A DNA stretch of 64,000 bases, from the NCBI GenBank assembly GCA_963704165.1, contig CAVPHD010000003.1, positions 192,001 to 256,000 of the forward strand, given 5' to 3'. The stretch comes from an uncultured delta proteobacterium (GTDB lineage Bacteria > Myxococcota_A > UBA9160 > SZUA-336). Position numbers and translations under genes: made by a program. Below are positions 18,823-41,202 of this stretch, in pieces (the stretch's first letter is position 1; every line of letters begins with the position of its first letter). The notes under the pieces were generated by a model. That model had not been told where the DNA came from and made no database searches. It was given only the letters and a program-made list of their open reading frames with translations.

Positions 18823-20587
18823 CCCGAGCTCCTTGAGCTGAGCGTCATCGACGGCGCTCGGCGACTCCATGAAGCTGTCCTGTGCGCGCTGCGTTTTCGG
18901 AAAAGCGAGCACGTCCCGCAGGCTCTCGCCCCCGGCGAGCATCAGCGCGAAACGGTCGAAGCCGAATGCGAATCCGCCGTGCGGCGGCGCTCCGGTGTCG
19001 AGCGCGTCGAGCATGAATCCGAAACGCGCCCGTGCTTCCGCCTCGGAGTACCCGAGGATCTCGAGGATCTTGAGCTGCACGTCGGAGCGGTGATTTCGCA
19101 GGCTACCGGAGCCGAGCTCGACACCGTTCAAGACCAGATCGTAGTGCGTGGCCACGACGCTCCTCGGATCCGTGTCGAGCTTGTCGAGATCGCTTTCGAG
19201 CGGTGCGACGAACGGCATGTGCATGTAGGTCAGCTTGCCGCCCTCCCCCTCCTCGAAGAGCGGAAAGCCGACGACGAAGTGGGGATCCCACGCCCGGCCA
19301 TCGTATCGATCGAGCTTCTGACCGAGGTCGAGGCGTAGTCGGCCGAGCACGTCGGAGACGATCGTCTCCCGGTCCGCGCCGAACAGGATCACCGAGCCGG
19401 GTCGCAGACCGGGCCCGTGCACCGATCGCCGCCTTCTCGTCGTCGGAGAGGAACTTCGCGATCGGTGACTGCCACGTTCCATCGTCGCCGACCCTCACCC
19501 AGGCCAGCCCCTTGGCACCGAAGCCACGCGCCTGCTCGTTCAGCCGATCGAGCTCGCTGCGGGTGAGCGCACTCGCGTCGTGGATCGGCAGTCCGCGTAC
19601 GACACCACCCGCCGAGAGCGCGCCGGCGAAGACCTTGAACTCGCTTGCGGCGAGCAGGTCCGAGAGCTCGACGATTTCGAGCTGGATGCGCCGCTCCGGT
19701 TTGTCGGAGCCGTAACGCGCCATCGCGTCCGCGTACTCGATGCGCGGAAACGGACGCTCGAGCTCCACGCCGAGCACGTCGCGGAACGCGCGTACGGTCA
19801 GGTGCTCGAGCAGATCGAGCACGTCGTCCATGCCGACGAACGACAGCTCCAGATCGAGCTGCGTGAACTCGAGCTGCCGATCGGCGCGTTGATCTTCGTC
19901 GCGGAAGCAGCGCGCGAGCTGGAAGTACGAGTCGAAGCCCGCGACCATCAGCATCTGCTTCAAGATCTGGGGTGACTGCGGGAGCGCGAAGAAACTGCCG
20001 TGGTGCATTCGGCTCGGCACGAGGAAGTCACGCGCGCCCTCGGGCGTGGCGCGCGCCAGGATCGGCGTCTCGATCTCGGTCAGCCCGCGCTCGGCGCAAC
20101 CGAGCCTCATCGACTGCGCGAGTTCGTGGCGCACCCGGAGACGTCTCTGCATTGCCGGACGTCGCAGGTCGTGGATTCGGTACTTGAGACGACTGCTCTC
20201 GTCGAGCTGCACGTCGTCCTCGATCTCGAACGGCGGCGTCGTGGCCGTGTTGAGGATGCGAACCTCGTGCGCGATCAGCTCGACCGCGCCCGTCGGCAGG
20301 TTCGGGTTCACGACGTCCGCGTCCCTGCGGGCGAGCACACCCCGCACGATCAGCACCCACTCGGCTCGCACCGCCTGCGCCTTGGCGTGTGCCTCGGGCT
20401 CTGCGTCCGGCTTGAAGACGACCTGCGCGATCCCGCTCCGGTCGCGCAGATCTACGAAGATCACGCCGCCGTGGTCGCGCCGCTTTCGCACCCAGCCGCA
20501 GAGAACCACTTCGCGGCCGACGTCGCTCGGTCGCACCTCTCCACAGAAATGTGTTCTGCGCAGATCGCCGAGTGGATCGAGTTGCAA
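18805..20587 (-). CDS. aspS: Aspartate--tRNA ligase (probably non-discriminating Asp/Asn); one extra base near 19412
   Basis: N-part (RTHFCG, RRDHGG, TPEGARDF, ARCFRDEDQRADRQ) and C-part (YDLVLNGVELGSGS, PPHGG, FPKTQ) join if one base is removed from GCCC-GGT. Confidence 0.93.
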
Positions 20588-22894: not shown

Positions 22895-25800
22895 CTAGAA
22901 CGTGTAGCGAATCCGGAGCTCGGCCATGTCGCGATACAGAACCGGCGCGACGCCGCGGAAGACCGGGCTCTTGTAGTCCGAAACCGAGCCGTACTGCGCG
23001 ATCGGGTAGTACGAGCCCTGCTGCTTGTAGACGTGACCGAAGAACTGCGTGAACCCGATGCTCGTCGAGAACTTGTCGTTCCAGCGGTACGAGAGACCGG
23101 TGATCAACGCGCCCTGTGACTCCCAAGGTGCGTACAGGAGCGTCACGCGCGGAGCGAGGCGGTCCTGGAAGTAGCCGGTGAAGAACGTGAACGCGACGTT
23201 GCCGGTGATCGGAGCCCCCGCATACCCGTAGTTGCCGTCCTGACCACCCTCGCTGCCGTCGTAGTCCGGCAGGTAGCGCAGGAACATCTGCAGATTCAGG
23301 AAGAAGCTGCGGTTCGGGTTCAGGAAGTTGAAGAACGTCGGGCGATCGACGGAGACCGAGAGCACCAGCTCGTCGGTCTGCGACAGTCCCTCGTATTCGG
23401 TGTTGTTCGGGATCAGCTTGTTCGCCATCCACGAGAACTCGATGCCCCAGCTGGTCTTCGTGACGTCTTCGGCGAAGTCGAGACCGAAACCGAAGACGTT
23501 GCGCTTCTGGTAGTTGAAGACCATCTGGCGTCCGCCCTGCCAGAGGAAATCGCGGCGCCCGTAGCGGCCGTCACCGCCCGCCTTTCGGACCGGCAGGGTC
23601 TGCGTCGTCGCGCTGAGGATTCCCGCGACGCCTCTGCAGAAGACCGGTGAGCGAGGCGGCAAGCCGTTCGGGAACAGCGCGGCGAAGTTCTCCGAGCCCA
23701 CGCCTTCGTCGGCGCGGTACGGGCTGTACTGCACGCCGTCCTGGAGCGTGTCTCCGGGGATGCCGCTGCCGCAGAGGATGTTGTCGTCGGTGATCGGACC
23801 GGGAAGGTAGTCGTCCTGCCCGTCCCAGACCGCATCGCGGTTTCGGTCGAGATCGGCGCTGAGATCGCCGTCCAGGTCGCGACCGCGATTCGTCTGGCTT
23901 CCGAACTCCCCGAGCAGCGCATTGCGCTGCGCCACGCTCATCTGCACGTACTCCGGACCGTAGGGCGTGTCGATCGCCACCACCTGCGAGGCGAGCAGCC
24001 GGCGAAGCGTCGAGAGTCCCTCGGTCTGCTGCAGGTACTGCAGCTTCGCGAGATTCACGAGCCGGTTGACTCCGGTCCCGATCGGAGGCTGATTCGGGTC
24101 GCTGGGATTGTTGGGGTCGGCGACCGTGACGATCTCGACGGCGAAGCCGATCGGCATCGCGAGAACCAGCGACTTGCCCTCGGCCTTCGCGTCCCGCGGA
24201 TCGACGAGGACGCTGTTCACGCCTAGATAGCACCACTGCGACGAACAGCTCTCCTGTGGATCGTACGCGAGCAGGAAGTCCCGACCGGCAACTCGGGGAT
24301 CGGCCCCTCCGGGCACCGGAACGTCCACGATCTGGTAGTCGGCGGAGACGTTGGGATCCGACAGCGGCGCGGAGACGACGTCGAAATCGACCTCTTCGTC
24401 GTCGAAGACGTACTGGTTGCGAGCGAAGATGCCGTCCGGGCCGGCGATCGGATCGCCCGTCGCCTGGAGCGACGTATTGGACTGCGACCAGTAGCTGAGC
24501 TCCTGCAAGCTCTCCGGCGGATCGAAGACACGATCGGCGCCGATGATCTCGAGCGAGATCAGCAGCCGCTCGAAGTTCGCCGAAACCGTCTCGAGCGAGG
24601 TGCAGCCGAGGTTGAACGGGGTGGCGACGAGTCCCGCGTTCTCGGAGTTCATCCAGCGCGAACAGTATTCGCCGTCGATGTCGGAGTAGTCGATGTTCGC
24701 GAGGTCGTTCGGATCCTGGTTCGGGTCGATCAGGTTCCACTTGTTCAACGGGCTGTCGAGGTCGAGCGGGTTGTTCGGATCCGTGTTGAAGACGATCGCG
24801 CCGAACTTGTCGAGCATCTCCTGGTTGACGGTCCAGGGCATCGGCTCGATCCAGCTGTCCGCCTCGCGAATGTTGCCCGGCTGGATCTGGTACTCCGCAC
24901 GGCCGGTCGTCCCGAGGTTGATCACGTCCTGCGGCGTGAGCCCGAGGTACTCACCGCTCTCGATGTTCCCGACCGGCGACGGAGGGCTGTTCTGCACGCC
25001 CTGGCGCGTGAAGTCGGCATCGATGTCCATGCTCTGCTGCCCGTTGCGGCTGTAGTTCAGCCCGTACTGGTAGTAGAGCTTGTACTGGTTGTTCAGTCGC
25101 GTTCCGACGAGCGCACCGGGCGAGAGCGCCTTCAGGCCGACGAACTCCTGGGTCACCACGCTCGCGTCGGCGTTCATCAGGTCGATGCCGCCGAGCTTCG
25201 ACACGCCCAGCTCCGCGTCGCGCGTGAGATCCGTCGTGATCGAGGGATCGGCGGCCCAGAGCGCCTGCTGCTCGACGCTGCACGGCGAGGCGTAGGAAGG
25301 TCCGCAGCCGAGCAGGCTGGCCTGTCCCGGCACCAGGCTGACGCCGAGATCTTGATACTGGCCGTCCTGCAGGGCGAGCGGCTCGATCGCGAGGAACTGC
25401 TGCTTGAGGAAATCCATGTCGGTGCGGTTGATGACGCTGGTGCTGCCGTCGAGCTCGACGGCCTGGATCGTCTCGACACCGTCGAGGAGCACGGCACCGA
25501 GGGAACCGAGGCCGGAGATGATGTTCGAGAGCAGGCCGAAGTCGGTCGGGAAGTTCAGCCGGTCGAACGCGCAGAACCCTTCGTCCGAATCGAACGTGTA
25601 GGCGCACAGGGAATGGAAGAGCGTCTGGTTGATGTTCTGGAGCGCCGCCACCCCATCGGTGCTGCGCAGCGTCTGCTGTCCGTCGGGCGTGTCGGGCGGA
25701 TTCCAGAGCAGGCAGTTGCCGGCGCTCGGGAAGATGTTGTCGCCGGTCGTGTCGGCTCGTCCGTCCGGACCGACGGCCTGACCCTCGTCATTCGTGCGAA

Positions 25801-28393
25801 TCGTGCAGCCGGTGGAGGCATTTCGCGAGCCGACGGAGAGCGGCGCCCCCGTCACCGGGTCGGAGGTGCGCTCGTACTGCTGGACCAGATCGAGATAGAA
25901 GCCGTCGTCCCAGCCGTAGAAGTCGGAGATCGCGAACGTGAAGCGGTCCAAGCGCCCCTCGATGCGCGCGCCGAAGTCGAAGCGCTCGAACCCGGCATAG
26001 TCGTCGTAGGGGTTGTGCTCCCCGATCACACCGATTCCGGCGAGCCCGTTGGCCATCGCGCCGAAGCTCTTCAGGCAGACGATGTCGACCGCGGAACCCT
26101 CGCCGCACTTGCCGAGATCCGTCGGCTCGAAGCGGTTGAAGAGCCCGAGCACCTCGAGACGCAGATCCTCGACCGGACCCACGCGCATGAACATCTCCGG
26201 GGAGAACGTCATGCTGACGCCCCACTGCCCGACGCGCTGCTCCTCGAGCGGCGCGAAGATGCCGTTGCCGATGTCGAGCGGGTTGTTTCGATCCTGGTTG
26301 CGGAAGAGCTCCGTCTTGCCCCAGACCGTGATCAGCTTGCCGACGCGCGTGTAGACCTGGCTGTCCGCCATCTCGAACTCGAGGTAGCCCTCGGCAAACT
26401 CGTGCTCACGCTGGCTCGCGCCGTGGTTCCACTGCAGCGAATCGACGCTGTACTTGAGGTCGAGGTTCGACACCAGGTTGTCGTAGTTCTGGTACTCCCG
26501 GCGCTGGCCGGGCGAGTCGAAGTAGATCCCGTTGTCGCTCGCGCGCGGCCGGGCCGGCAGCGTGTTGTTCGGTCCGCCGTCCGCGTAGGATCGGAAGTCG
26601 GTCGCATCGAGCGGCTCGACCGTGGAGTCGAGAGGCCGAACGGTGAGATCGCCGAGCAGGCTCAGCACCTCGAACTGGACCCGCGCTTGCGGCGCGACCT
26701 GGCCGGCGTTCTGAGTCGGTGACGTGGTGTTGATCTCGATGCAGTTGCCGTCCCCGTTGACCCCGATGTTCAACGACGTGTTGTTCCTCGCGGTGGTGCT
26801 GCAGCCGATCGCCAGCGCCTGAGAGGTCAGGTCGCCGGCCGACGAGCCACAGGTCCCGGCCAACCGGTTGTACGTTCCGCCGGCAGCCGAACATCCCTGA
26901 TTGATCAGGAATGCATCGGTGTACACACCGTAGAGCTCGACGAGCTTCGTCGAGCCCGGGTTGCTCGCGCTCGGAACGTTGATCTTCGCGGTCAGCGAGT
27001 ACTTCGGACGCGCGACATCCGTCGCGGAGTTCCGGCCGAAGGTCGCGTCGAAGCGGTCCTCGTCCTCCGGGCCGGAAGCGGTGATCGGAGTCGAGAGCTC
27101 GTAGCCGGCCTGCAGGGCGCGATCGTTGTTGACGACGTAGGGCAAGTCGTCGGCCGTGTCGCGGATGCCGTCCGGACCGACGAAGAACGGATTGACCCGG
27201 TTGGAGGCGTTCGCCGCCGAGAAGACCGCCGTCCCCTCCGCGTCGTTGGTCTGCGGAAGGCCTCCGATCGTCATGACCAGCGTCTCGCCGAGCGCCTGGT
27301 CGTAGTGACCGATCGTGTCGAGCGCGCCACCGCCCGCGAAGTATCCATCGGGGCGAATCGGCGTGTTGATCGTCGCCAGGAACGGCCAGACCATGCTGCC
27401 GAGCTGACTCGAGCCCCACTTCGCGGTGAGCAGCTCGGGAGCCATGTCCTCGGCCAGGATCCCGAAGCGACTCACATCCGGGCGCGTCGCGAGGAGCGCG
27501 GGAATGTTCGCGTCGAAGGTCGTCTCCGGCGTGCCCAGGATCGCGTCCGCCTCCGCGGTCAACGCCGCCGCGAGCGCGGGATCGTCGGTCTCGCTCGCCT
27601 CCGCAAGCAGCGCCATGCGGTAGGCGTTTTGCGCGTTCGACAGAACGTTGCCGTTGATCAGCAGGCTCTGGATGCGCGTGTATTCGTCGTTTCCGATCCG
27701 GGGTCGTGCCGCGGCCGAAAGGCTCGCGCGAGTGAACGGATGGAAGGATCCCGCTCGGACCTCCCAGGTCTTGTTGCCCGTCTGGTTGTTCGGGTTGTCG
27801 AGCGGGGACTTGTTGTTCAGGTTGCAGAAGACCGCCAGCGGAAAGGGATTCGAGAAGACCCCGGCCGGATTCTCACAGTCGCGGTAGCGGCGGCCCGGGT
27901 TCAGCTCCTGCTGCCCCGGGACGAGCGAGCCGGGGCGGTACGTCTGCTCGAGCAGGCCCGCGAAGTACGGCGACTTGTTCTTGACGTCCTCTCGGAGCGA
28001 GAGCGGCTGCCGCACCGCCGAGCGCTGATCGTCCCCGTACGAATCGGCGCTGTTGAAGAGTCCGCAGGAGCGCGAGTAGATGCAGTCGTAGCTGATCAGG
28101 AAGCGCGAGAACAAGAACATCGAGTCGAACGGCCCGAAGCCGTCCGGGAAGGCGTTGAACTCGACCTCGGTCGAGAGCACGTGGCGCCAGCTCGACCAGG
28201 TCGCTCCGTTCAGCGGCAGCTCGGAACCGACGAACATGAGCCGCGACTCGTAGAAACCGTGGATGGAGAGCTTGCGTTCCCCCTCCAGTTCCCACTCGAA
28301 CGCCGCGGCCGTCCGCGCGACTCCGCTCCCGATCAACAGGATGCCGAGGAGCAGAGCGGCAGCATTTCCGGCTTTCAGCGTTCCCCTCATCAC
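22895..28393 (-). CDS. Giant outer-membrane protein, DUF1302-like, with large insertions (1832 aa)
   Basis: Sec signal (..ARTAAA/FEW); DUF1302-like blocks (EGYLEF..TRVGKLITVWGKTELFRNQDRNNPLD; RNVFGFGLDF..SWGIEFSW); C-terminal RIRYTF beta-signal; downstream of MMPL and YCF48-like genes. Confidence 0.75.
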   Translation of the reverse strand: MMRGTLKAGNAAALLLGILLIGSGVARTAAAFEWELEGERKLSIHGFYESRLMFVGSELPLNGATWSSWRHVLSTEVEFNAFPDGFGPFDSMFLFSRFLISYDCIYSRSCGLFNSADSYGDDQRSAVRQPLSLREDVKNKSPYFAGLLEQTYRPGSLVPGQQELNPGRRYRDCENPAGVFSNPFPLAVFCNLNNKSPLDNPNNQTGNKTWEVRAGSFHPFTRASLSAAARPRIGNDEYTRIQSLLINGNVLSNAQNAYRMALLAEASETDDPALAAALTAEADAILGTPETTFDANIPALLATRPDVSRFGILAEDMAPELLTAKWGSSQLGSMVWPFLATINTPIRPDGYFAGGGALDTIGHYDQALGETLVMTIGGLPQTNDAEGTAVFSAANASNRVNPFFVGPDGIRDTADDLPYVVNNDRALQAGYELSTPITASGPEDEDRFDATFGRNSATDVARPKYSLTAKINVPSASNPGSTKLVELYGVYTDAFLINQGCSAAGGTYNRLAGTCGSSAGDLTSQALAIGCSTTARNNTSLNIGVNGDGNCIEINTTSPTQNAGQVAPQARVQFEVLSLLGDLTVRPLDSTVEPLDATDFRSYADGGPNNTLPARPRASDNGIYFDSPGQRREYQNYDNLVSNLDLKYSVDSLQWNHGASQREHEFAEGYLEFEMADSQVYTRVGKLITVWGKTELFRNQDRNNPLDIGNGIFAPLEEQRVGQWGVSMTFSPEMFMRVGPVEDLRLEVLGLFNRFEPTDLGKCGEGSAVDIVCLKSFGAMANGLAGIGVIGEHNPYDDYAGFERFDFGARIEGRLDRFTFAISDFYGWDDGFYLDLVQQYERTSDPVTGAPLSVGSRNASTGCTIRTNDEGQAVGPDGRADTTGDNIFPSAGNCLLWNPPDTPDGQQTLRSTDGVAALQNINQTLFHSLCAYTFDSDEGFCAFDRLNFPTDFGLLSNIISGLGSLGAVLLDGVETIQAVELDGSTSVINRTDMDFLKQQFLAIEPLALQDGQYQDLGVSLVPGQASLLGCGPSYASPCSVEQQALWAADPSITTDLTRDAELGVSKLGGIDLMNADASVVTQEFVGLKALSPGALVGTRLNNQYKLYYQYGLNYSRNGQQSMDIDADFTRQGVQNSPPSPVGNIESGEYLGLTPQDVINLGTTGRAEYQIQPGNIREADSWIEPMPWTVNQEMLDKFGAIVFNTDPNNPLDLDSPLNKWNLIDPNQDPNDLANIDYSDIDGEYCSRWMNSENAGLVATPFNLGCTSLETVSANFERLLISLEIIGADRVFDPPESLQELSYWSQSNTSLQATGDPIAGPDGIFARNQYVFDDEEVDFDVVSAPLSDPNVSADYQIVDVPVPGGADPRVAGRDFLLAYDPQESCSSQWCYLGVNSVLVDPRDAKAEGKSLVLAMPIGFAVEIVTVADPNNPSDPNQPPIGTGVNRLVNLAKLQYLQQTEGLSTLRRLLASQVVAIDTPYGPEYVQMSVAQRNALLGEFGSQTNRGRDLDGDLSADLDRNRDAVWDGQDDYLPGPITDDNILCGSGIPGDTLQDGVQYSPYRADEGVGSENFAALFPNGLPPRSPVFCRGVAGILSATTQTLPVRKAGGDGRYGRRDFLWQGGRQMVFNYQKRNVFGFGLDFAEDVTKTSWGIEFSWMANKLIPNNTEYEGLSQTDELVLSVSVDRPTFFNFLNPNRSFFLNLQMFLRYLPDYDGSEGGQDGNYGYAGAPITGNVAFTFFTGYFQDRLAPRVTLLYAPWESQGALITGLSYRWNDKFSTSIGFTQFFGHVYKQQGSYYPIAQYGSVSDYKSPVFRGVAPVLYRDMAELRIRYTF

Positions 28394-28427: not shown

Positions 28428-31400
28428 TTATCCGATGCTTCCGACCGCGGACTTCACTTGCGTGGCACCCATGTCATGTTGCTCCGAAGACGCAGAGGGT
28501 GACGCTGAGAAGAACTTCGGCCGCAGGATCGAAACGCACGCCGGAACGAGAAAAACCGCGCCCAGCATGTTCATGCCCATCAAGATGCTCAGAAGTTGCG
28601 CCATCTCGGCTTGGAAGCGGAGATTGCTGAACGACCACACGACGATGCCCGCGATCAACGTCGTCGCCGTGAACGAGACGGCCATTCCGGTGGTCCGAAT
28701 CGCGCGGCGGATCGCCTCGTCGAGGTCGCCGCACCAGACGTATTCCTGTTTGATCCGGTCGGTGACATAGAGCGAGTAGTCTACGCCGATTCCGACACCG
28801 ACGGATTGGACCGGTAGCGTCTGGATCGTGAGCCCGGTTTCTCGCAGCGCCATGTAGGCGAGCGATCCCATCGTGGCGACGGCCAGGCTGAAGACCAGGA
28901 TCAGGCCGGACGACGGCGAGCGATAGCTGACCGCCACGAACGTCCAGCAGATCAGGAAGATCAGCACGATGTTCGCGACGTGTCCGCGCTCGACCTCTTC
29001 GTTCACGGCGGCGTACACACCCATGATGCCGCCGGCGAGCACGAACTCGGCGCCTCGCGTGTAGGTGTTCGTACGCTGGGGGTTGAACGAGGTGTCCTTG
29101 AACTTCGAGTTCTGGGTCCAGAGCTCGTAACGGCAGTAGTGGCGGCAGTACCGGATCGTCTGCGCGGTGATGTTGCCGTCGTCGTTCTTCCACTCCTCGT
29201 CGATGTAGTACACGCTGCGGGACACGATGTGGTTGACGAGATCGCCGACGGTCTCGAGACCGACCATCACGTCTTCCTTGGTGGAATCGACGGTCTCGAC
29301 CCGGTAGTCGTACTCGGCCGAGAGCTTCTCGCCGATCTTGCCGAGCCTCTGGGCATTCAGGCCGAGATCCTTTCTCATCCGATCGGTGAGGCTGATCTCG
29401 GGAAGCTTCTTGAGCGACAGCGCCTTGATCGCCGCGATCACGTTCTTCTCGACCTCGGCCGGATCGACCGACTCGGTCCAGCGATCGATGCGGACGGCAT
29501 CCTTCCCCTGGTAGCCGGTGATCTTCTGGTCGTCGTTGATGTCCGCGACCTGCACGACCATCTCGCTGTGTCGGGGGAAGAGCACCGGACCGAAGAGGTA
29601 GTAGGCGGCCGAGAGAATCCCGCCCTTGTCCTCGACGAGGCGCACGCTGATGCGCCCCATCGGGTTGGCCTCGATGAACTCCTGCGCATAGTGGATCGCG
29701 CGCTTGATCGTCCTGCCTTTGTGATCGCGGAAGAAGAACGTGATGTTCGCGTCCTCCGCGTCCTCGGTCAGGAACGGGCGCAGGAACCCCGGGATGCTGC
29801 TCCGCTGAAGCTGGAAGATGATCCCGCCGACGGTCTGCGCGGAATCGGGCACGAACCCCCACTTCGGATCCGCGTAGTGATTCACGAGCCAGTACTGCTT
29901 GATGATGTCGACGAGCGATATCGTCGCGCCCGGATCGACGTGCTTCTTCATCCAGCGCTGCATCGCTTCCATGCGCTGGAGCACGAGCCCGTCGGAGCTT
30001 GCGCTCTTGCCGTCGCCATCGACGAAGATCGTCATCTGGTCGACACCACCGAACTTCTCGCCGAGCTCCGCGGTCGCGACGTTGAACGGATGATCGGGCC
30101 AGAAGATCGGAACGCCCGGACGGCTCTCGCCCACCGTCGTGTGGAAGAGCACGTAGTAGGTCGCCACCATCAACGCGAGAGCGGTTCCGCCCGTGAGCGC
30201 GAACTTGCTGACCCGCCCGGTGGCGAGGTTGCCGGCGAAGGTGAGGAAGGCGTTCATCCAACGCGGCGTGAAGTGCTCGTAAGCGTGCGGTGGCGGCAGG
30301 TACGCGATCATGATCGGGTGGAGCAGGATCACGTTGAAGATGATCGCGATGACCCAGAACGAGCCGAAGATCGACAGATCTCGCATCGTCTGGATCGTCG
30401 TCAGGAAGCACACCGCGAGACCCGCGGCGTCGGTGATGATCCCGAGCATCCCGGGCAGCATCAGCTTGGCCATGGCGGTGGTCGCGGTCTCGACCTTCGC
30501 TTCGTTCATCTCCTCCGGCGTCATCTTGCGACCGAGCTTCCGCTCGAGCGCGCCGCACTCCATCTCGTAGTCCTCGAAGAAGCGCTCGGCCATCTGGATC
30601 GTGTGCGAGATCGAGCGCGCCGTGATCAAGAGCGGAATCACGAGGATGAGCGGATCGAGCGTGATCCCGAGCCAGGCGCAGAAGCCCATGCCCCAGATCG
30701 CGGTCGCGAGTCCGGCGACCATCGGAATCGCCACGCCGTGCAGCCGGCGGAAGTAGGCGAGCAGCAGGAAGAACAGCGAGACGATCGTGAGCAGCAGGTA
30801 GTAGCCCATCTCGAACGCCTGCGAGATCACGTAGCCCGTCGCCATCGGAGCGCCCGAGATGAAGATCTCCGCGGTTCCGTCCGCTTCCTCTTCGGCCTTC
30901 AGATTCTGCAGATAGTTGAAGAGCTCGATGTAGGCTTCGCTGTTGTCGAGCCGGTGCGTGATGAAGCCGGCCGAGACGAGACAGGCGCGGTGATCCTTCG
31001 AGACGAGGTTGCCGTAGATCATGCCCGGGTTCTCGAGCACCGTCTCTTTCAGCTTGGCGAGATCCTCGGGCTCTTCGGGGATCTCCTCGAGCAGCGGGAC
31101 GGCCTCGATGGCGCCGTCGGGCTCGATGTGGATCACGCGCGTGTTGATGTGAGAGAGGCTCCGCACCTGGTAGTGATTGACGTTGGGCGCCTTGTCGAGC
31201 TTGTCCGTGACGCGCGAGACCTTCTCGAGGAAGTCGTAGTCGTAGATCTGCCCCTCTTTCTTGATCACCGCGATCGCGATGAACGAGGCCGATCCGAACT
31301 TGCCCGAGAACTTGTCCTGCGAGTGGATGTACGGGTGCTCGGGGTAGGTCTTCCGCACGTTCGCGTCGACGCGGAAGCGCGCCTTCACGCCGAGCAGGAG

Positions 31401-31607
31401 CTCGCCCTCGCCGGTCTCGCTCTGCGAAGCCGTGTAGTTGTAATAGGCGGCGTTCACGAGCGGAAACGAGAAGAAGACGCCGATGCTGAGCAGAGTGATC
31501 AGCGTCGCGAAGCGATTTCGCATGATCATCCGGCCAAAGCGCATCGAGAACGCGCTCTCCGGCAGGTTCTCTTCGACGGGACCGCGCTGCGGATTCTGGT
31601 CGGACAT
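28428..31607 (-). CDS. MMPL/RND family transporter with an enlarged second periplasmic domain
   Basis: Two repeats of 1+5 TM helices; ARSISHTIQMAERF, GIITDAAG, GVGIGVDYSLY, SNLRFQAEM; start MSDQNP 2 nt after the upstream stop. Confidence 0.9.
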   Translation of the reverse strand: MSDQNPQRGPVEENLPESAFSMRFGRMIMRNRFATLITLLSIGVFFSFPLVNAAYYNYTASQSETGEGELLLGVKARFRVDANVRKTYPEHPYIHSQDKFSGKFGSASFIAIAVIKKEGQIYDYDFLEKVSRVTDKLDKAPNVNHYQVRSLSHINTRVIHIEPDGAIEAVPLLEEIPEEPEDLAKLKETVLENPGMIYGNLVSKDHRACLVSAGFITHRLDNSEAYIELFNYLQNLKAEEEADGTAEIFISGAPMATGYVISQAFEMGYYLLLTIVSLFFLLLAYFRRLHGVAIPMVAGLATAIWGMGFCAWLGITLDPLILVIPLLITARSISHTIQMAERFFEDYEMECGALERKLGRKMTPEEMNEAKVETATTAMAKLMLPGMLGIITDAAGLAVCFLTTIQTMRDLSIFGSFWVIAIIFNVILLHPIMIAYLPPPHAYEHFTPRWMNAFLTFAGNLATGRVSKFALTGGTALALMVATYYVLFHTTVGESRPGVPIFWPDHPFNVATAELGEKFGGVDQMTIFVDGDGKSASSDGLVLQRMEAMQRWMKKHVDPGATISLVDIIKQYWLVNHYADPKWGFVPDSAQTVGGIIFQLQRSSIPGFLRPFLTEDAEDANITFFFRDHKGRTIKRAIHYAQEFIEANPMGRISVRLVEDKGGILSAAYYLFGPVLFPRHSEMVVQVADINDDQKITGYQGKDAVRIDRWTESVDPAEVEKNVIAAIKALSLKKLPEISLTDRMRKDLGLNAQRLGKIGEKLSAEYDYRVETVDSTKEDVMVGLETVGDLVNHIVSRSVYYIDEEWKNDDGNITAQTIRYCRHYCRYELWTQNSKFKDTSFNPQRTNTYTRGAEFVLAGGIMGVYAAVNEEVERGHVANIVLIFLICWTFVAVSYRSPSSGLILVFSLAVATMGSLAYMALRETGLTIQTLPVQSVGVGIGVDYSLYVTDRIKQEYVWCGDLDEAIRRAIRTTGMAVSFTATTLIAGIVVWSFSNLRFQAEMAQLLSILMGMNMLGAVFLVPACVSILRPKFFSASPSASSEQHDMGATQVKSAVGSIG

Positions 31608-31609
31608 GC

Positions 31610-33088
31610 TCACTCCCCCGCGCCGGTCGTCGGGATCTGCTCGCGTTTGGGCAGGATCTCGAACCAGTTCAATCCAGAGTCGGTCGAGCGCAGTACGTTT
31701 CCGCCCGCGCCCACCATCCAGCACACGTTCGGCGTTCCGCACGTCACGTCGCGGAAGTAGCCGTGCTTGTCGGCCGGGAATCGGCCCTTGCCCTTGCCGG
31801 TCTCGTCGCCCAGACGGACGAAGGTGGCTCCACCGTCGTCACTGATCCGGCGAATGCCCTTCTCGCCGACGACGATCAGGTTGCGATCCGCGAACGCGCC
31901 CGAAAAGAGCGCCTGCCTCGAGCCGCTCGGCAAGTACGTCCAGGTCCGGCCGCCATCGGCGGAGCTGAGCAGGACGCCGCCGAGCCCCGTGATCATGCCT
32001 TGGTCGGGATCCTTGAACTTCACGTCGAAGAGGAACGGGGTCTCGACGACCTGGATCCGAAGCGCCGGCACCGGCGAGAGCTTTCGGTCCGCGAACGCCT
32101 TCATGTCGATGCCTTCTTGATCGAGCGGCGTCGCGTTCTTGATCTTGATGCGATCCTGGTTGATGCCTTCGTTCTCCAGGAACTTCTGGATCTCGTCGGC
32201 GCGTTCGTCGGCGAGGAAGGTATCGCCACGGGCGCGCAGCTCGTCGGCGGTGACCATGCCCTCGATCTCGATTCGAAGGTAGGGCTTCTGCTCGAGCACC
32301 TTCGTCGCGGCGAAGATCTGCTCCCACTTGTCCTTCGGAACCTTCTTCTCGTTCTTCTCAAAGACGATTTCGTCGAACTTGACCGTGCCCACGATCTGGC
32401 CGCGATCCCAGTTCTCGCCGCCGTCCTCGGTCCGGTAGATGTGGCCGTACTCGCCGGCCATCCAGCCGCGCTTCTCGTCCACGAAGAAGACGTCGTTCAG
32501 GAAGATGTCGTCGTAGATCTTCTCGCCGCGTTCGAAGGCTTCGAGCTCGTCGTCGCTCAGGTACTTGAAGCTCGGGTGGTCCTCGGTGAGGAGGAAGGAC
32601 CGGTCCTGCCAGTTCTTGCCGCCGTCGTTCGTGTAGTAGCGACCGCCCCAATCACCGACGGCCCAGGCCGTGTTCGCCGTGACGGCCGTGATCGCGAACA
32701 AGTGCTGCGAGGGCTTGCGCGGGATGCTCTGCAGCTCCCAGGTGTCTCCGCCGTCGGTCGTGTGGATCACGAATCCGCGTCGGCCGACGGCCCAACCGTT
32801 CTTCTCGTCCGCGAAGTCGATGTCGTAGATCGACTGGTCGGTCATCCCGTCGAGCTTTCGCCAGCTCTTCCCACCGTCGAGGGTGCGGTAGATGGCGCCG
32901 AAGTAACCGGCGGCCCACAAGTGGTCCGCTCCGATCGCGGTCACGGCGTAGAGATCGTCGGGGAGATCGATCTCTCCTTCCGCGTACTTCTCTTCGTACG
33001 ACTCCTCCATGCAGCCGCTCGAGAGGAACGCGACCAATCCGAGGCAAGCGAGAGCGCGCACTCCGCGCACGACGAACCAGCTGTTCAA
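31610..33088 (-). CDS. YCF48-like BNR-repeat beta-propeller lipoprotein with inserted OmpA-like domain
   Basis: Lipobox LSSGC; repeated T/S-x-DGG-x-T/S-W Asp-boxes; internal IEIEG..LADERA..IQKFL..GI..DRI segment. Confidence 0.85.
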   Translation of the reverse strand: MNSWFVVRGVRALACLGLVAFLSSGCMEESYEEKYAEGEIDLPDDLYAVTAIGADHLWAAGYFGAIYRTLDGGKSWRKLDGMTDQSIYDIDFADEKNGWAVGRRGFVIHTTDGGDTWELQSIPRKPSQHLFAITAVTANTAWAVGDWGGRYYTNDGGKNWQDRSFLLTEDHPSFKYLSDDELEAFERGEKIYDDIFLNDVFFVDEKRGWMAGEYGHIYRTEDGGENWDRGQIVGTVKFDEIVFEKNEKKVPKDKWEQIFAATKVLEQKPYLRIEIEGMVTADELRARGDTFLADERADEIQKFLENEGINQDRIKIKNATPLDQEGIDMKAFADRKLSPVPALRIQVVETPFLFDVKFKDPDQGMITGLGGVLLSSADGGRTWTYLPSGSRQALFSGAFADRNLIVVGEKGIRRISDDGGATFVRLGDETGKGKGRFPADKHGYFRDVTCGTPNVCWMVGAGGNVLRSTDSGLNWFEILPKREQIPTTGAGE

Positions 33089-33344: not shown

Positions 33345-34652
33345 ATGACGGCATTCGCGAGCGATGGGCGACACCCGAGGTCTCCCGCAACGACCCTGGC
33401 GAGCGCGGCGATTCGCGCCGCTGCGAGCGATTGGAGGCCGCTCAGGGGGAAGCGCACGCGTGCCGAGCGCGATGCCGATGCCGGCCGGAGGATGGCCCTG
33501 GCATTCGGCTCGCTCCGCGGGATCTACACGAAGCTGGGCCACCAGCTGGCGACCCGCGTCGATGCACTTTCGGACGAGTTTCGCGCCCCGCTCGCTGCGC
33601 TCGGCGATTCGGCTCCGCCGGTTCCCTTCGAACGGATCCGTGCGGAGATCTCGCGCGCGCTCGGTTCGGCCGAGCGCTTCGCGTGGATCGATCCCGAGCC
33701 GCTCGGAACCGGATCGATCGCGCAGGTCCATCGCGCGCGCCTCCGCAGCGGCGCGGTGGTCGCGGTCAAAGTGCGTCATGCCGAACTGACGCCGGACCGG
33801 ATCGCCCGCGACGTGCGGAGGCTTCGCCGCATCGCCTGGGTGCTGCGGCCCTGGCTCGGACGAGGCGACGCCTCGGAGATCATCGACGGTCTATCCGATG
33901 CGCTGCTTCGCGAGATCGATTTCGAGTTCGAGGGACGTGTCGCCGAAGCGATCGCTCGCGACCTCGAGGACGACTCCCGAATCGTCGTACCGCGCGTGCA
34001 TTGGGAGGCGACTTCGCGAAGCGTGCTCACCCTCGACTACGTGCCTCGCGTGCGCTTCGACGATCGCTCGGCGCTCGAGGCGCGCGGCGTCTCCCTCGAA
34101 GCGGTGCTGGCGATCGTCGCCGACGCCTATGGCCGACAGGTCTTCGGACACGGGCTGTTTCACGCCGACCCCCACGCGGGGAACCTCTACGTCGTCGACG
34201 AGCCGGGTCCCGAACCGCGCGTTCTCTTCGTCGATTTCGGCCTGGCGGAACGCCTCTCGCCGCACACCCGCGAAGAGCTTCGCAGCGGACTGAAGGCGCT
34301 GTTGAAGCGCGACGTCGACGGCCTGCTCGCCGGACTCGAGAGAATTCGAGCGCTCGTACCGGGTCGTGAGGCCCGGGCGCGCGAAGCGCTCGTAGCGGCA
34401 CTCGACGGCGGCGCGGCCGGGGCGCTCGGCGCGAACGCGGCCGACATCCGGATCATGAAATCACTGGGCAAGCGCCTCGTGCACGAGAGCGGCGCGTTTC
34501 GAGTGCCGCGCGAGCTTCTGCTCTGGGTGCGCACGCTCGCCCACGTCTACGACTTGTTCGAGCAGATCGCACCGGGTGCGGATCCGATGCGGCGTCTCTT
34601 GCCGCACGTCCTGCGCTTCGTGACCGAGGACGGCGAGAACGCTACTCGATGA
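33345..34652 (+). CDS. AarF/UbiB (ABC1) atypical kinase
   Basis: YTKLGHQL, LGTGSIAQVHRA, VAVKV, FHADPHAGN, VDFG. Confidence 0.9.
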   Translation: MTAFASDGRHPRSPATTLASAAIRAAASDWRPLRGKRTRAERDADAGRRMALAFGSLRGIYTKLGHQLATRVDALSDEFRAPLAALGDSAPPVPFERIRAEISRALGSAERFAWIDPEPLGTGSIAQVHRARLRSGAVVAVKVRHAELTPDRIARDVRRLRRIAWVLRPWLGRGDASEIIDGLSDALLREIDFEFEGRVAEAIARDLEDDSRIVVPRVHWEATSRSVLTLDYVPRVRFDDRSALEARGVSLEAVLAIVADAYGRQVFGHGLFHADPHAGNLYVVDEPGPEPRVLFVDFGLAERLSPHTREELRSGLKALLKRDVDGLLAGLERIRALVPGREARAREALVAALDGGAAGALGANAADIRIMKSLGKRLVHESGAFRVPRELLLWVRTLAHVYDLFEQIAPGADPMRRLLPHVLRFVTEDGENATR

Positions 34653-35340
34653 TCTGATCTCGGATCAGCTTTGCGAGGATCTCGAGGGTGCGGACGCGAT
34701 CGGACGTCGAGAGGCTGATCAGATCGCCGATCGTCACACGTCCGTCGACCTGGGCGAGCATGAATCCCTCGTCGGTCCGGAGCTTCAGCTTCATGATCTC
34801 CGCGAGGCTGATCCGCCGGCGCAAGACCCGACCCTGGTCTCCGATCTCCTTCGCCCACGTCTGCGCGCGCTCGGTGCGCACGAGCTGCAGGTAGCCCTGA
34901 ACGTCGAGTCGCTCCGGCTGCGCCTTGGCCACGTCGTTGAGCTCGCGCCAGGCGTCGTCGTAGCGCCCCTCCTTGTAGGCCTGCAGCGCGAGCTGCAGCT
35001 GGGTGTCGGGATCGTCGTCGGTCTCGAACTCGATGATCGGGCTGCTCTTGGGAGTGTCGTCGTCGTCGGTGACGATCCGACCGGCCGTTACGCTCCCGGT
35101 GGATGGCCCCGACGAGTTCCCCGCGGCGCGCGCCGGTCCGGAAGCAGGTGGCGTCTTCTTGCGCGCCCCGCCGTTCTCCTCGTAGGCCGTCTCGAGATAG
35201 TCGTGGACCGCCTGGTTCTCCGGGTCGAGCGCACGCGCCTGCTCCCAGCACGCGATTGCGCCGTCGAGATCGCCCAACCCGTAGTGGTTGAGCCCTCGCT
35301 TCAGCAGGCGCGTCACATCATCGTGTCGGGACTCGCTCAA
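34642..35340 (-). CDS. Tetratricopeptide repeat protein with C-terminal winged-helix-like (DUF4388-type) tail
   Basis: TPRs GDLDGAIACWEQARALDPEN and GRYDDAWRELNDV; C-terminal EGFMLAQVDGRVTIGDLISLS..LEILAKL. Confidence 0.7.
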   Translation of the reverse strand: MSESRHDDVTRLLKRGLNHYGLGDLDGAIACWEQARALDPENQAVHDYLETAYEENGGARKKTPPASGPARAAGNSSGPSTGSVTAGRIVTDDDDTPKSSPIIEFETDDDPDTQLQLALQAYKEGRYDDAWRELNDVAKAQPERLDVQGYLQLVRTERAQTWAKEIGDQGRVLRRRISLAEIMKLKLRTDEGFMLAQVDGRVTIGDLISLSTSDRVRTLEILAKLIRDQIIE

Positions 35341-35349
35341 CGCCGGATC

Positions 35350-36930
<1,581 letters not shown>

Positions 36931-36954
36931 CTCTTCCTCATGACTCGAAGCTCT

Positions 36955-37968
36955 TCATAGGGTCTGCAAGGCCTGACGGACTTCCTTGTCCATCGGATCG
37001 AGCTCCCAGGCGCGCTGCAGGTGCTTGCGCGCCTTCTGCACGTCGCCTGCCTGCCGATAGATGGACCCGAGCGACTTCCGGAAGCGCAGGTTGTCTTCGT
37101 CCAGCGATGCCGCGCGTTCGCCGTACAGCGCGGCCTTCGCGAGGTCGCCCACCGACTCGAAGAGCAGGACCGACAGCTGGTGCGCGAGCTCGGCGTCGGT
37201 CGGACAGAGCTGCGAGGCTTCCTCGAGCAGCTCCGCCGCTCCGACGCGGTCGCCGTGAAGCAAGAGGTCCGCCTTGCGCCGGACGTCGGCCGCGCGCTCG
37301 GAGTTCGCGCGCGGAAGCAGATCCGCGAGCTCGTCGTGGTACTGCTTCTCGCGCGGGTCGAACGCGAGCGCGAGTTCGACGAGCTGCGCCGCCCGAGTCC
37401 ACGAGCCCGCCGCCTTCTGCTGAAGCGCCGCCTCGAAGTGCTTGCGCGCGCGCGCGCGGCTCTGTTCGAGCGCGTTCTCCAGGGCACTGAGCACGAGCCC
37501 CGGAGACTGCAGGCCCAGGCGATTGCGGAGCGACGATCCGCGGCCACCCGGAGGCGCCGATGTCCGCCTCGGCGCAGCTCGCGGCGGAGTAGCGGTCGGT
37601 CGCGACTTCGCGGCGGCGTTTGGCTCGGGCAGCGACTTCTGATAGCTCGATCGCAGCTTCGGATCGCGGAGCACGTCGTGTGCAGCGACGATGCGCTTGT
37701 AGATCTCGTTCAGGAGCGCCGCATACGGTCCGAGCTCCTTCGTGAAGTAGCGATCCGGATGGAACACCTTCGAGCGCTCGAAGAACGCATCGCGGATCTC
37801 CTCCGGCGACGCGGTGCGGGCAACACCGAGGAGCTGGAAGTAGTCGAGCTCGGGAAGCACGCGCGCGAGCTCTCGGATCTCCGCCTGAAAGGCGTCCGGC
37901 AGGTCCACGCGCACGTTCGTCCGCGAAGCCTCGGTAGAGGCCACTCCGCGGTCGTGGCTCGAGCTCAT
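36955..37968 (-). CDS. J-domain protein with C-terminal TPRs
   Basis: DYFQLLGV...SKVFHPDRY J-domain; TPR helices at the C-terminus. Confidence 0.88.
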   Translation of the reverse strand: MSSSHDRGVASTEASRTNVRVDLPDAFQAEIRELARVLPELDYFQLLGVARTASPEEIRDAFFERSKVFHPDRYFTKELGPYAALLNEIYKRIVAAHDVLRDPKLRSSYQKSLPEPNAAAKSRPTATPPRAAPRRTSAPPGGRGSSLRNRLGLQSPGLVLSALENALEQSRARARKHFEAALQQKAAGSWTRAAQLVELALAFDPREKQYHDELADLLPRANSERAADVRRKADLLLHGDRVGAAELLEEASQLCPTDAELAHQLSVLLFESVGDLAKAALYGERAASLDEDNLRFRKSLGSIYRQAGDVQKARKHLQRAWELDPMDKEVRQALQTL

Positions 37969-38084
37969 CCCGTCTCCACTCCGATGCGCAAGTTCGCATC
38001 GAAGCTATCGGGGAGGCTCGCACCGAAGTTGAGAGCGCGGGTCACCCATCGCCGCGATTGGCGAGGCTGTCGCGTTGCCGGCGA

Positions 38085-39010
<926 letters not shown>

Positions 39011-39033
<23 letters not shown>

Positions 39034-39886
39034 GCTTCGTCCCCACGCCGCCATCGGTGAAGATCTCGAGCAGGAGTGCGTGCGGCACGCGCCCGTCGAT
39101 GATGTGAGCAGCGGTCACGCCGCGCTCGAGCGCGTGAACCGCGCACTCGAGCTTGGGAATCATGCCACCCTTCACGGTGCCGATCCCGATCGCGTCGCGA
39201 ACCTGTGCTTCGCTCATCTGCGCGATCAGCGTCTTGTCTTCGTCGAGCACGCCGACCACGTCCGTCAGCAGGATCAACTTCTCGGCCGAGAGCGCTTCGG
39301 CGATCGCGCCTGCGGCGGTATCGGCGTTCACGTTGTAGGTCGCTCCCGCACCATCGACGCCGACGGGCGCGATCACGGGGATGAAGCCGTCCTTGGTCAA
39401 CGTGCGAATCAGCGAGACGTCGACGCGCTCGGGCGTCCCGACGCGGCCGAGGTCGCGCCCGCCCGGACCGAGCAGCTTGCGCACGCGCAGGAAACCGCCC
39501 GAATCCTTCCCGGTCAGTCCGATCGCCCGACCGCCGGCGTCGCCGATCAGCGACACGATCTCGGCGTTGATCTGACCGCCGAGCACCATCTCGACCACTT
39601 CCATGGTCTCGTCGTCGGTCACGCGCACGCCATCGACGAACTCGGACTGCTTTCCGAGGCGCGTGAGCATCCGCCCGATCTGCGGCCCCCCGCCGTGAAC
39701 GATCACGGGCCGCAGACCGATGAACCGGAGCAGTGTCACGTCGGTGGCGAACGACGACTTCAAGGCGTCGTTCTCCATCGCGGCGCCGCCGTACTTGATG
39801 ACGACCGTCTTGTCGCTGAATGTGCGGATGTACGGCAGCGCCTCGACGAGGATCTTCGCCTTGCGGATCAGCTCTTCCATGTCCAT
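39011..39886 (-). CDS. argB: Acetylglutamate kinase
   Basis: [37 protein letters not shown]. Confidence 0.96.
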
Positions 39887-41202
39887 CTAGAGGATGAACC
39901 GGGAGAGTTCCCGGTCACCCGCGATGTCGGCGAGGCTTTCGCGCACGCGCGCGCCGTCGAAGACGACCGAGGTACCGCCGAGATCGGGCGCCTCGAAGAG
40001 CGTCTCGTCGAGCAGGCGTTCGAGCACCGTGTGGAGTCGCCGCGCGCCGATGTTCTCGGTGGACTGGTTCACGAGCGCGGCGATCCGCGCGATCTCGCGG
40101 ATCGCGTCCGGCTTGAACGACAGGGTCACGCCCTCGGTCGCCAGGAGCGCCTCGTACTGCTTCACGAGCGCATTGTGTGGCTCCTCGAGGATCCGCACAA
40201 ACGCCGCCTCGTCGAGGTTCTCGAGCTCGACGCGGATCGGAAAACGACCCTGCAGTTCCGGAATCAGATCGGACGGGCGCGAGGTGTGAAACGCCCCGGC
40301 GGCGATGAAGAGCACGTGGTCGGTTCGCACGGTTCCGTGCTTGGTCTGTACGCTCGTGCCCTCGACGATCGGCAGCAGATCACGCTGCACGCCCTCGCGC
40401 GAGACGTCCGGACCCCCGTGCCCTTCGCGGCGGGCGATCTTGTCGATCTCGTCGATGAAGACGATTCCGGTCTGCTCGACGCGCTGCACCGCCTTCTCGC
40501 GGACGGAATCCGGATCGAGCATGCGAGCGGCTTCGTCGTCGCGAAGCAGCTCGCGCGCCTGCGCGACCTTCACGCGCCGCGCCCGCGTCTTCTTCGGCAG
40601 GAGCCCCCCATCATGTCCTTCAGCGCGACGCCGATGTCCTCGACGCCCGGCGGCGAGAAGATCTCGAGCCCGGTTCCCGCGCGCTCGGGCAGGTCGATCT
40701 CGACTTCTCGCTCCTCGAGTTCGCCGGCGCGAAGCATCTCGCGCATGCGCTCGCGCGTGGTGTCGGGCGAGGAGCCCGCACCGGGTTTTCGCGGGAAGAG
40801 CGCATCGAGCAGCCGCTCCTCGGCAATCCGCTCGGCGGAGGCGCGGACCTTCTCCATCTCCTCTTCGCGCACGAGCTTCATGCCGACCTCGACGAGATCG
40901 CGAACGATCGACTCGACGTCCCGGCCGACGTAGCCGACCTCGGTGAACTTCGAGGCTTCGACCTTGCTGAACGGCGCCGCCGCGAGCTTCGCGAGGCGAC
41001 GCGCGATCTCGGTCTTGCCGACGCCGGTCGGCCCGATCATCAGGATGTTCTTCGGCTGGATCTCGTCCCGGAGCTCGCCCTCGACCTGCTGCCTTCGCCA
41101 GCGGTTTCGCAGCGCGATCGCGACGGCCCGCTTCGCGGCGTTCTGACCGACGATGTAGCGGTCGAGCTCCGACACCACCTCGCGCGGGGTGAAGGTCTTC
41201 AT
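39887..41202 (-). CDS. hslU: ATP-dependent protease ATPase subunit; one base missing in a G-run near 40604-40609
   Basis: [13 protein letters not shown] and [11 protein letters not shown] in one frame; [35 protein letters not shown] in the other. Confidence 0.93.

What the first reader, a model, noticed from the sequence alone, without database searches (positions are those of the whole stretch)
29218..29466. Acyl-carrier-protein-like domain lacking the phosphopantetheine Ser, inserted in the MMPL periplasmic loop
Seen: between TM7 and TM8, inside an insertion of about 200 aa, lies EVEKNVIAAIKALSLKKLPEISLTDRMRKDLGLNAQRLGKIGEKLSAEYDYRV...LETVGDLVNHIVSR. This follows the ACP pattern: helix I, 'EI', DLG(L)DSL, helix II, 'EF/Y D', and TVGDLV..I. 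The DSL motif is replaced by NAQ, so it cannot be phosphopantetheinylated. Known: ACPs are cytoplasmic four-helix bundles with an acyl-chain pocket. Inference: an ACP fold reused on the periplasmic side as a non-covalent lipid-binding or docking module, a fusion I do not know to be described.
Basis: partly seen in the sequence, partly recalled or inferred. Interest (0 to 1): 0.75.

Follow-up and report, generated by a model that had tools for sequence, protein, structure and literature searches.

The report
Serine-less carrier fold caps membrane transporter
A membrane transporter of one family of uncultured bacteria carries, in a loop predicted to face the periplasm, a domain derived from the fatty-acid carrier protein that has lost its cofactor serine; sister transporters have an unrelated domain, a short helix or nothing in the same loop, so it likely works as an exchangeable structural or contact cap rather than as a carrier.

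Summary
Confirmed. Residues ~713-800 of a 1059-aa MMPL/HAE3-type RND transporter (window 28428-31607, minus strand) are an ACP-derived domain. A family profile retrieves ACPs from the PDB (best E 4.6e-6), and the AlphaFold model superposes on ACPs at 1.8-1.9 A. Serine stands at the attachment column in 3 of 55 orthologs, and the acidic recognition helix is neutralised.

The domain caps a ~115-aa beta-rich 'crown' between TM7 and TM8 that ordinary paralogs lack. The same loop holds a NusA-like helix-hairpin-helix domain, a short helical segment or nothing in sister clades. All four versions occur in this genome.

The ACP version was found in 19 of 31 other genomes of one family and 0 of 169 elsewhere in the class. 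It was kept in 58 of 58 clade members, under relaxed purifying selection (dN/dS 0.36).

Best reading: a cofactor-less structural or contact cap. No description turned up in eight literature searches. The scan noted a similar periplasmic Ser-less ACP in ActF on other DNA, but not this fusion.

The parts
28428..31607 (-). RND transporter, MMPL/HAE3 (COG1033-like), 1059 aa, 12 predicted TM helices; clade A of a four-clade crowned family
   Evidence: Pfam MMPL E 3e-16; hydropathy; AlphaFold pLDDT 79.9 and Foldseek best to MmpL4/5; 370 homologs
29208..29471 (-). ACP-like four-helix domain, residues 713-800, capping the crown
29352..29354 (-). Ala752, at the column of the ACP phosphopantetheine serine; Ser in 3 of 55 orthologs
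   Evidence: hhalign register; column counts
29295..29309 (-). Near-invariant D-Y-R-x-E motif (767-771) after helix II; not an ACP motif
   Evidence: D 55/55, Y 51/55, R 54/55, E 55/55
29472..29660 (-). N-terminal half of the beta-rich crown (650-712), with a conserved aromatic helix followed by a G-P-x-x-x-P-R-type segment
   Evidence: alignment across clades A-D; model strands
29052..29207 (-). C-terminal half of the crown (801-852)
29133..29147 (-). Cys821/Cys825 pair in the crown; likely a disulfide, fitting a periplasmic location (inferred)
   Evidence: both Cys in 53 of 56, both lost together in the other 3
30141..30209 (-). TM7 (467-489), preceded by a basic cytoplasmic stretch
28923..28985 (-). 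TM8 (~875-895)
31610..33088 (-). Upstream YCF48/BNR beta-propeller protein with a lipobox-like Cys (by eye)
   Evidence: Pfam PSII_BNR E 9.6e-33; directly upstream in 30 of 30 clade A loci
32138..32362 (-). OmpA-like domain inserted in the YCF48 protein
   Evidence: Pfam OmpA E 6.8e-6, 26.8 bits against a cut-off of 27.2; absent from this genome's two other aligned YCF48 paralogs
22895..28393 (-). Downstream 1832-aa protein related to DUF1302 outer-membrane proteins, greatly enlarged
   Evidence: no Pfam hit; BLASTP E 8e-20 and 2e-11 to this genome's Pfam-positive DUF1302 paralog; downstream in 29 of 30 clade A loci, the 30th is cut short

Best explanation
The segment is an AcpP-derived domain without the attachment serine, inserted into one loop of a beta-rich crown in the transporter's second large, predicted periplasmic domain, where it likely serves as a cofactor-less structural cap: a spacer or contact surface for the periplasmic partners of an AmeABCD-type (DUF1302/YCF48/RND) system that likely moves hydrophobic compounds. 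Shown: the fold (profile and model), the serine loss, the neutralised helix II, the shared insertion site, retention in the clade and purifying selection. Inferred: periplasmic location (RND topology, basic cytoplasmic loops, Cys pair); anchoring to the crown through the invariant residues at the end of helix II and of helix IV; a contact or spacer role; a hydrophobic substrate. On this reading the cap marks one paralog among several in the same cell, and its bulk and surface matter more than any ACP chemistry.
For: 1) One loop, four states. Of 240 homologs, 58 carry the ACP cap, 62 a ~37-aa helical segment and 113 an HhH domain, with no overlap. 7 carry none of these: 5 full-length clade D proteins plus 2 shorter proteins not examined further. 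All four states occur among this genome's own paralogs. The HhH cap scores Pfam HHH_5 E 4.4e-6, over cut-off, and is best matched by NusA (E 9e-5). A tree built without the crown recovers each clade as one group, SH-aLRT 99-100.
2) Carrier chemistry is lost. Ser is in 3 of 55; helix II region net charge averages -0.3 against -7 in the genome's two AcpPs; the whole domain averages -5 against -16/-17.
3) The domain is kept and constrained. It is in 58 of 58 clade A proteins, dN/dS is 0.36, and it has new invariant residues K/R757, D767, E771, R797 (55/55), R769 54/55 and S763 53/55.
4) Context. YCF48 is upstream in 30 of 30 loci and the DUF1302-like gene downstream in 29 of 30, both with extra domains of their own. 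AmeABCD, with DUF1302 and DUF1329 members and an HAE3 RND, is reported as a monoterpene exporter (PMC6394551, passages).
Against: No partner is identified. The domain is the least constrained region measured (dN/dS 0.36 against 0.15 overall; column conservation 0.55), and its distal end is variable, which fits a passenger equally well. One genome of the same genus (G030, 93% complete) lacks the RND gene at the locus but keeps YCF48 with its OmpA-like insert and the large DUF1302-like gene, ~190 bases apart. A dedicated, obligate cap-partner pair is therefore not required there. No DUF1329 gene lies at this locus.
Confidence: 0.52

Rival explanations
1. Tolerated passenger: an acpP fragment landed once in a permissive surface loop of the crown, lost its serine, became structurally locked in through contacts with the crown, and has no job of its own.
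For: The loop accepts 3-9, 37, 52 or ~90 residues. The domain has the highest dN/dS of all regions (0.36). The distal end takes indels. The whole gene is missing in G030. The neighbouring genes also collected insertions, which suggests a lineage that accumulates them.
Against: No loss of the cap in 58 of 58 clade A proteins at 59-90% identity. Charged residues 757, 767, 769, 771 and 797 are invariant or nearly so and differ from those of ACP. The HhH cap is likewise retained across 113 proteins.
Confidence: 0.25
2. Non-covalent lipid pocket: the helical bundle still sequesters an acyl chain and would hand substrate between the RND and the periplasmic or outer-membrane components.
For: The core positions stay hydrophobic (744, 755, 758, 762, 770, 787, 790, 794), and position 759 is small (Ala 37, Gly 6 of 55), which could leave room. 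The system type handles hydrophobic compounds: fitness on fatty esters (10.1101/2020.07.04.188060, passages) and monoterpenes (PMC6394551).
Against: Position 784, equivalent to a pocket-lining Ile of AcpP (register; pocket role recalled), is Trp in 36 and Phe in 11 of 55. The pocket-mouth end and helix III are the least conserved parts (0.48 and 0.41). Sister clades carry an HhH domain, which has no known lipid pocket (recalled), or nothing. ACPs hold acyl chains that are tethered through phosphopantetheine (established knowledge).
Confidence: 0.17
3. Working carrier or cytoplasm-facing ACP mimic: the loop would face the cytoplasm and the domain would be loaded, or would stand in for the AcpM/MbtL bound to mycobacterial MmpLs.
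For: A D-S pair survives in 3 orthologs. MmpL4 binds ACPs (PMC11850643, passages). IMG names 3 orthologs as including 'acyl carrier protein'.
Against: 52 of 55 lack Ser. In MmpL4 the ACP binds the cytosolic face through acidic residues of helix 2, and that helix is neutral here. There is no extra TM segment in 489-873, the model has the standard 12-TM layout, and the Cys pair is conserved.
Confidence: 0.03

Closest known systems
Type II acyl carrier protein AcpP/AcpM (Pfam PF00550, NCBIfam NF002150/TIGR00517; PDB 2kwl, 2cgq, 9dp6_B)
   Same: Four-helix fold at 1.8-1.9 A in the model, D-L before helix II, T-V-G-D-type start of helix IV, hydrophobic core pattern. The profile scores this genome's two AcpPs (10.7 and 9.0 bits) above its other seven carrier domains (4.0 bits or less).
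   Different: No serine, neutral helix II, about 6 extra residues before helix III, a new D-Y-R-x-E motif; an internal domain in a predicted periplasmic loop rather than a free cytoplasmic protein.
AmeD of AmeABCD (HAE3 RND with DUF1302, DUF1329 and a periplasmic AmeC; PMC6394551) and the cofit DUF1302/DUF1329/BNR/COG1033 clusters (10.1101/072470; P. putida PP_2018-2019, PP_0765-0766)
   Same: MMPL-type RND next to a YCF48/BNR gene and a DUF1302-related gene.
   Different: A 203-aa crown-plus-cap insert in the TM7-TM8 domain, an OmpA-like insert in YCF48, a DUF1302-like protein of 1832 aa instead of ~600, and no DUF1329 at the locus (copies lie elsewhere in the genome). AmeD itself was not aligned here.
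MmpL4/MmpL5 with bound AcpM, MbtL or E. coli ACP (PMC11850643 passages; PMC11633376 and PMC12346298 abstracts in listing)
   Same: An RND of the MMPL type physically joined to an ACP fold; MmpL4/5 are the best Foldseek matches of the whole model.
   Different: There the ACP is a separate protein bound on the cytosolic face by charge. Here it is fused, Ser-less and on the opposite side. MmpL4/5 extend a coiled coil from the periplasmic domain, whereas this family has a beta crown.
Clade C paralogs of the same family with an HhH (PF14520, NusA acidic-repeat-like) cap
   Same: Same crown, same loop, a small helical domain of a type known from cytoplasmic proteins, retained through the clade (113 proteins).
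   Different: Unrelated fold; no description was found for this either, though it was not searched for by name in the literature.

Membership tests
ACP/PP-binding | Four-helix carrier fold | tested here: met
   Model helices 716-730, 752-766, 777-783, 787-797; rmsd 1.8-1.9 A to ACPs. Predicted, not solved; Foldseek E only 0.009 and Z ~11, which the tool warns can be reached by common helical bundles.
ACP/PP-binding | Sequence homology at profile level | tested here: met
   PDB profile E 4.6e-6; 11 of the 15 non-family hits among 1.84 billion representatives carry PP-binding; hhalign 98.6% (4 of 6 templates were picked by this same profile, so partly circular).
ACP/PP-binding | Score above the curated family cut-off | tested here: not met
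   Query: no Pfam hit, NCBIfam 13.2 bits against 66; 3 of 30 members hit PF00550 at E<=1, best 8e-4.
ACP/PP-binding | Serine at the start of helix II for phosphopantetheine | tested here: not met
   Ala752; column P15 K11 A7 E4 Q4 S3 among 55.
ACP/PP-binding | Acidic recognition helix II | tested here: not met
   Mean net charge -0.3 (range -5 to +3) against -7 in both AcpPs of this genome.
ACP/PP-binding | Acyl-chain pocket | not testable with these tools
MMPL/HAE3 RND | 12 TM helices with two large loops (TM1-2, TM7-8) | tested here: met
MMPL/HAE3 RND | Asp-Tyr proton-relay pairs in TM4 and TM10 | tested here: inconclusive
   D943-Y944 in TM10 is near-invariant; TM4 has S-H instead in all four crowned clades, so only one of the two recalled pairs is present.
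AmeABCD-type four-part system | YCF48/BNR and DUF1302 neighbours | tested here: met
   DUF1302 assigned by BLAST to a Pfam-positive paralog, not by Pfam directly.
AmeABCD-type four-part system | DUF1329 member in the cluster | tested here: not met
   No PF07044 match inside the window; several elsewhere in the genome. Split clusters are known in Pseudomonas.
AmeABCD-type four-part system | Transport of a hydrophobic substrate | not testable with these tools
   needs experiment

The most novel reading that the evidence does not exclude
This lineage's RNDs have evolved a previously undescribed periplasmic crown whose tip is a plug-in socket. It has at least twice captured small cytoplasmic housekeeping folds (ACP; NusA-like HhH) and repurposed them as paralog-specific address tags or hand-off sites for matching, likewise decorated YCF48 and DUF1302 partners. 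The ACP version may still grip an acyl chain without its cofactor, as one example of a wider class of exported serine-less ACP folds.
Probability: 0.25. Interest if true: 0.82.

Novelty: new variant of a known kind. Interest (0 to 1): 0.62.

Why it matters
The ACP fold is treated as a cytoplasmic, cofactor-bearing shuttle, and known RND-ACP links are on the cytosolic face. Here the fold appears cofactor-less in a predicted periplasmic loop, as one of several exchangeable caps on an unclassified domain. How the widespread DUF1302/DUF1329/YCF48/RND systems bridge the periplasm is an open question. Four paralogs in one cell that differ at one loop give a natural swap experiment for asking whether the RND head selects its partners. 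It is also an annotation warning: databases already label some orthologs 'acyl carrier protein'.

Tried and rejected
Pfam on the query and its fragments gave no PP-binding hit. The domain profile against this genome's 37,529 six-frame ORFs ranked the two AcpPs 3rd and 6th among non-self hits but at E 2 and 6.5, which is suggestive only; shuffles of one AcpP reached at most 5.8 bits against 10.7.

ESM Atlas on the domain gave leads under 0.9 only, with a PP-binding cluster at rank 7, 0.78. Atlas on the cap-less crown of P0255 gave no feature hit and all TM <0.4. The structure searches of the insert were filled by the ACP part. The crown's fold is therefore unassigned, not shown to be new.

Complex prediction of YCF48 with the crown plus cap returned 'no answer' (runs 0.02, 0.50, 0.00) and is not used either way. 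A homolog search with the exported-looking ACP P0135 found only itself among 13 candidates, so no family of such proteins was established. A VIA-align search of the full-length model did not run, so the crown was not tested in that context.

Rejected: a frameshift or mis-assembly (one open frame, GC3 0.82-0.96 through residue 1000, same domain in 58 proteins); a chance helical resemblance (profile and structure agree); PKS/NRPS origin (those carriers score 4 bits or less, though 3 PKS-like proteins are among the weak hits); an obligate ACP-cap/OmpA-insert pairing (G030). P0057 was dropped from the column counts because its domain looked frameshifted (55 of 56 rows used).

Full report
Observation. 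The gene is window 28428-31607 (minus), 1059 aa, Pfam MMPL E 3e-16. The quoted peptide is residues 718-797 (29217-29456). The finding's end coordinate is one base out of frame. Hydropathy and the AlphaFold model (117-sequence alignment, mean pLDDT 79.9) give 12 TM helices with large loops at TM1-2 and TM7-8, and no hydrophobic segment between residues 489 and 873. Basic stretches precede TM1 and TM7 and follow TM2, TM8, TM10 and TM12 (read from the sequence), which by the positive-inside rule and known RND topology puts the TM7-TM8 loop in the periplasm. This is inferred, not measured. A Cys pair in the insert is present in 53 of 56 orthologs and lost as a pair in the other 3, which fits a disulfide.

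Is it an ACP? The single sequence barely shows it: no Pfam hit, NCBIfam E 0.079, and 1 of 47 full-length orthologs with a weak PP-binding hit. A profile of 30 domain sequences (alignment A3, cut from 29 of the 30 clade A loci plus the window) retrieves ACPs from the PDB. The best E is 4.6e-6, and 56 of the 60 rows shown are ACPs or ACP subunits, 3 are unrelated and 1 is uncertain (some subunit names recognised as ACP from memory). Against 1.84 billion representatives it finds 5 family members at E<=2e-13 and 15 weaker hits, 11 of which carry Pfam PP-binding; the other 4 are unrelated repeat proteins. The insert model (pLDDT 84.8) matches AcpM at rmsd 1.9 A over 82 columns with TM(target) 0.80-0.84 and probability 1.00, although no Foldseek row reaches E 0.001. 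VIA-align gives Z 11.2 and rmsd 1.8 A over all 74 residues of 2cgq, and most of the 50 rows name carrier proteins or PKS/NRPS. The tool warns that Z under 13 can be a common helical arrangement, so the case rests on sequence and structure agreeing. The profile prefers this genome's two free AcpPs to its seven other carrier domains.

It is not a working carrier. Ala752 aligns with the serine. Among 55 orthologs that column is Pro 15, Lys 11, Ala 7, Glu 4, Gln 4, Ser 3. The helix II region has a mean net charge of -0.3 against -7 in AcpP. New invariant or near-invariant residues appear at 757 (K/R), 763, 767-771 and 797. Position 784, aligned with a pocket-lining Ile of AcpP (pocket role recalled), is Trp in 36 and Phe in 11, while 759 is small. 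Helix III (0.41) and the loop before the serine position (0.48) are the least conserved parts, and they take insertions of up to 8 residues. Eight pairs of loci give dN/dS 0.36 for the domain against 0.15 for the protein, 0.27 and 0.13 for the crown halves and 0.04 for TM8-12 (a simple counting method, probably inflated by high GC3, with one near-identical pair).

The larger picture. The ~200-aa insert is a conserved beta-rich crown (650-712 plus 801-852) with the ACP domain nested in one loop. Three conventional paralogs of this genome have 8-16 residues in place of the crown. Two homolog searches (the best 120 of 370 hits each) show four crowned clades that differ at that loop. Of 240 proteins, 58 carry the ACP cap (A), 62 a ~37-aa mostly acidic helical segment (B) and 113 an HhH domain (C), with no overlap; 7 carry none, of which 5 are full-length clade D proteins and 2 are shorter proteins not examined. 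This genome has one paralog of each kind. The HhH cap passes Pfam HHH_5 (E 4.4e-6) and is closest to the acidic repeats of NusA (E 9e-5). A quick IQ-TREE of 43 selected rows (12 A, 10 B, 10 C, 5 D, 3 own paralogs, 3 outgroups) without the crown recovers each clade at SH-aLRT 99-100, with A and B together at 99. The root is unsure because the outgroups are long branches. Since ACP and HhH are unrelated folds, at least two separate captures at this loop follow whatever the root.

Distribution and context. The ACP cap was found in 19 of 31 other genomes of the window's family and in 0 of 169 genomes of 11 other families of the class, always once. A clade B query matches 139 of 201 genomes across all 12 families. 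Named relatives are labelled Myxococcota or Deltaproteobacteria. In 30 of 30 clade A loci a YCF48 gene with an OmpA-like insert lies directly upstream, and in 29 of 30 a ~1800-aa DUF1302-related gene follows; several loci are near-copies. The OmpA-like insert was found in 23 of 31 family genomes, with 4 weak matches elsewhere. No DUF1329 gene is in the window, though the genome has several. In G030, a 93%-complete genome of the same genus, YCF48 and the large gene sit about 190 bases apart with no RND between them, and no clade A gene was found elsewhere. Four other family genomes tested lacked both the crowned RNDs and this YCF48.

Mechanism. The transporter likely belongs to the AmeABCD type. 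That system is reported as a monoterpene exporter (PMC6394551, passages). Similar clusters are cofit and were proposed to export a cell-wall component (10.1101/072470, one passage) and are needed on fatty esters (10.1101/2020.07.04.188060, passages). Substrate and direction here are unknown. For the cap I commit to a cofactor-less structural or contact role (0.52): it is kept and has its own invariant residues, but its ACP chemistry is gone and other folds can stand in the same place. A locked-in passenger (0.25) and a non-covalent lipid pocket (0.17) remain open; a working or cytoplasmic carrier is unlikely (0.03).

Comparison and novelty. MmpL4 binds ACPs on its cytosolic face through the acidic helix 2 (PMC11850643, passages); MmpL5-AcpM complexes are listed likewise (abstracts). 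This case is fused, Ser-less and on the other side. Eight full-text searches found no description of an ACP domain in an RND periplasmic loop. The library lacks most subscription papers, no supplements were read, and the crown and HhH cap were not searched by name. The scan holds no look-alike of this insert but has unchecked notes on Ser-less ACP folds in a periplasmic loop of ActF and on phage rIIB. Among my own weak hits, P0131 and P0135 have lipobox-like N-termini and P0128 a twin-arginine-like segment (all by eye), each with Ser-less ACP domains. Verdict: real, a new variant of a known kind, interest 0.62.

Noticed in passing
G000:C1 RND paralog, L105:9999-13166(-), residues 760-810: A NusA-like helix-hairpin-helix domain sits in the same periplasmic crown loop, in a clade of at least 113 proteins. 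This paralog also has an extra ~90-aa helical-looking insert in its first large loop.
   Followed up: partly
window 32054-32413 (-): OmpA-like domain inserted in the YCF48 propeller. By eye, the Asp of the peptidoglycan-binding motif (motif recalled) is Thr/Ser in the aligned orthologs while the Arg is kept, so it may be a second degenerate borrowed domain in the operon.
   Followed up: partly
window 22895-28393 (-): A 1832-aa DUF1302-related protein, about three times the usual length. Related proteins in reading frames of ~1000-2300 codons occur in up to 6 copies per genome across the class (133 of 201 genomes) and escape Pfam here.
   Followed up: partly
P0131, P0135, P0128: Free-standing proteins with Ser-less ACP domains and export-like signals by eye (two lipobox-like, one twin-arginine-like). 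P0135 had no relatives in the homolog search.
   Followed up: partly
L108:7556-7750 (G030:C32): The clade A RND gene is cleanly absent between intact YCF48 and DUF1302-like genes in a genome of the same genus.
   Followed up: yes
L055 and L090: In these two clade B loci the RND is followed by a gene that looks like leucyl-tRNA synthetase (N-terminus recognised from memory). No YCF48 or DUF1302-like neighbour was detected with the window's queries in the 53 clade B loci, many of them short.
   Followed up: no
G000:C4:177148-179949 (+): A conventional MMPL paralog with a C-terminal extension that looks like a cyclic-nucleotide-binding domain (by eye; no family scan run).
   Followed up: no
window 19103-20587, 38005-39054, 39887-41308: The aspS-, argF- and hslU-like ORFs (names by eye) drift into unrelated-looking sequence at one end, suggesting frameshift sequencing errors in this assembly.
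   Followed up: no
window 34642-37968 (-): A DnaK-like gene flanked by a DnaJ-TPR gene and a TPR gene; DnaK lies upstream of the operon in most long clade A loci.
   Followed up: no
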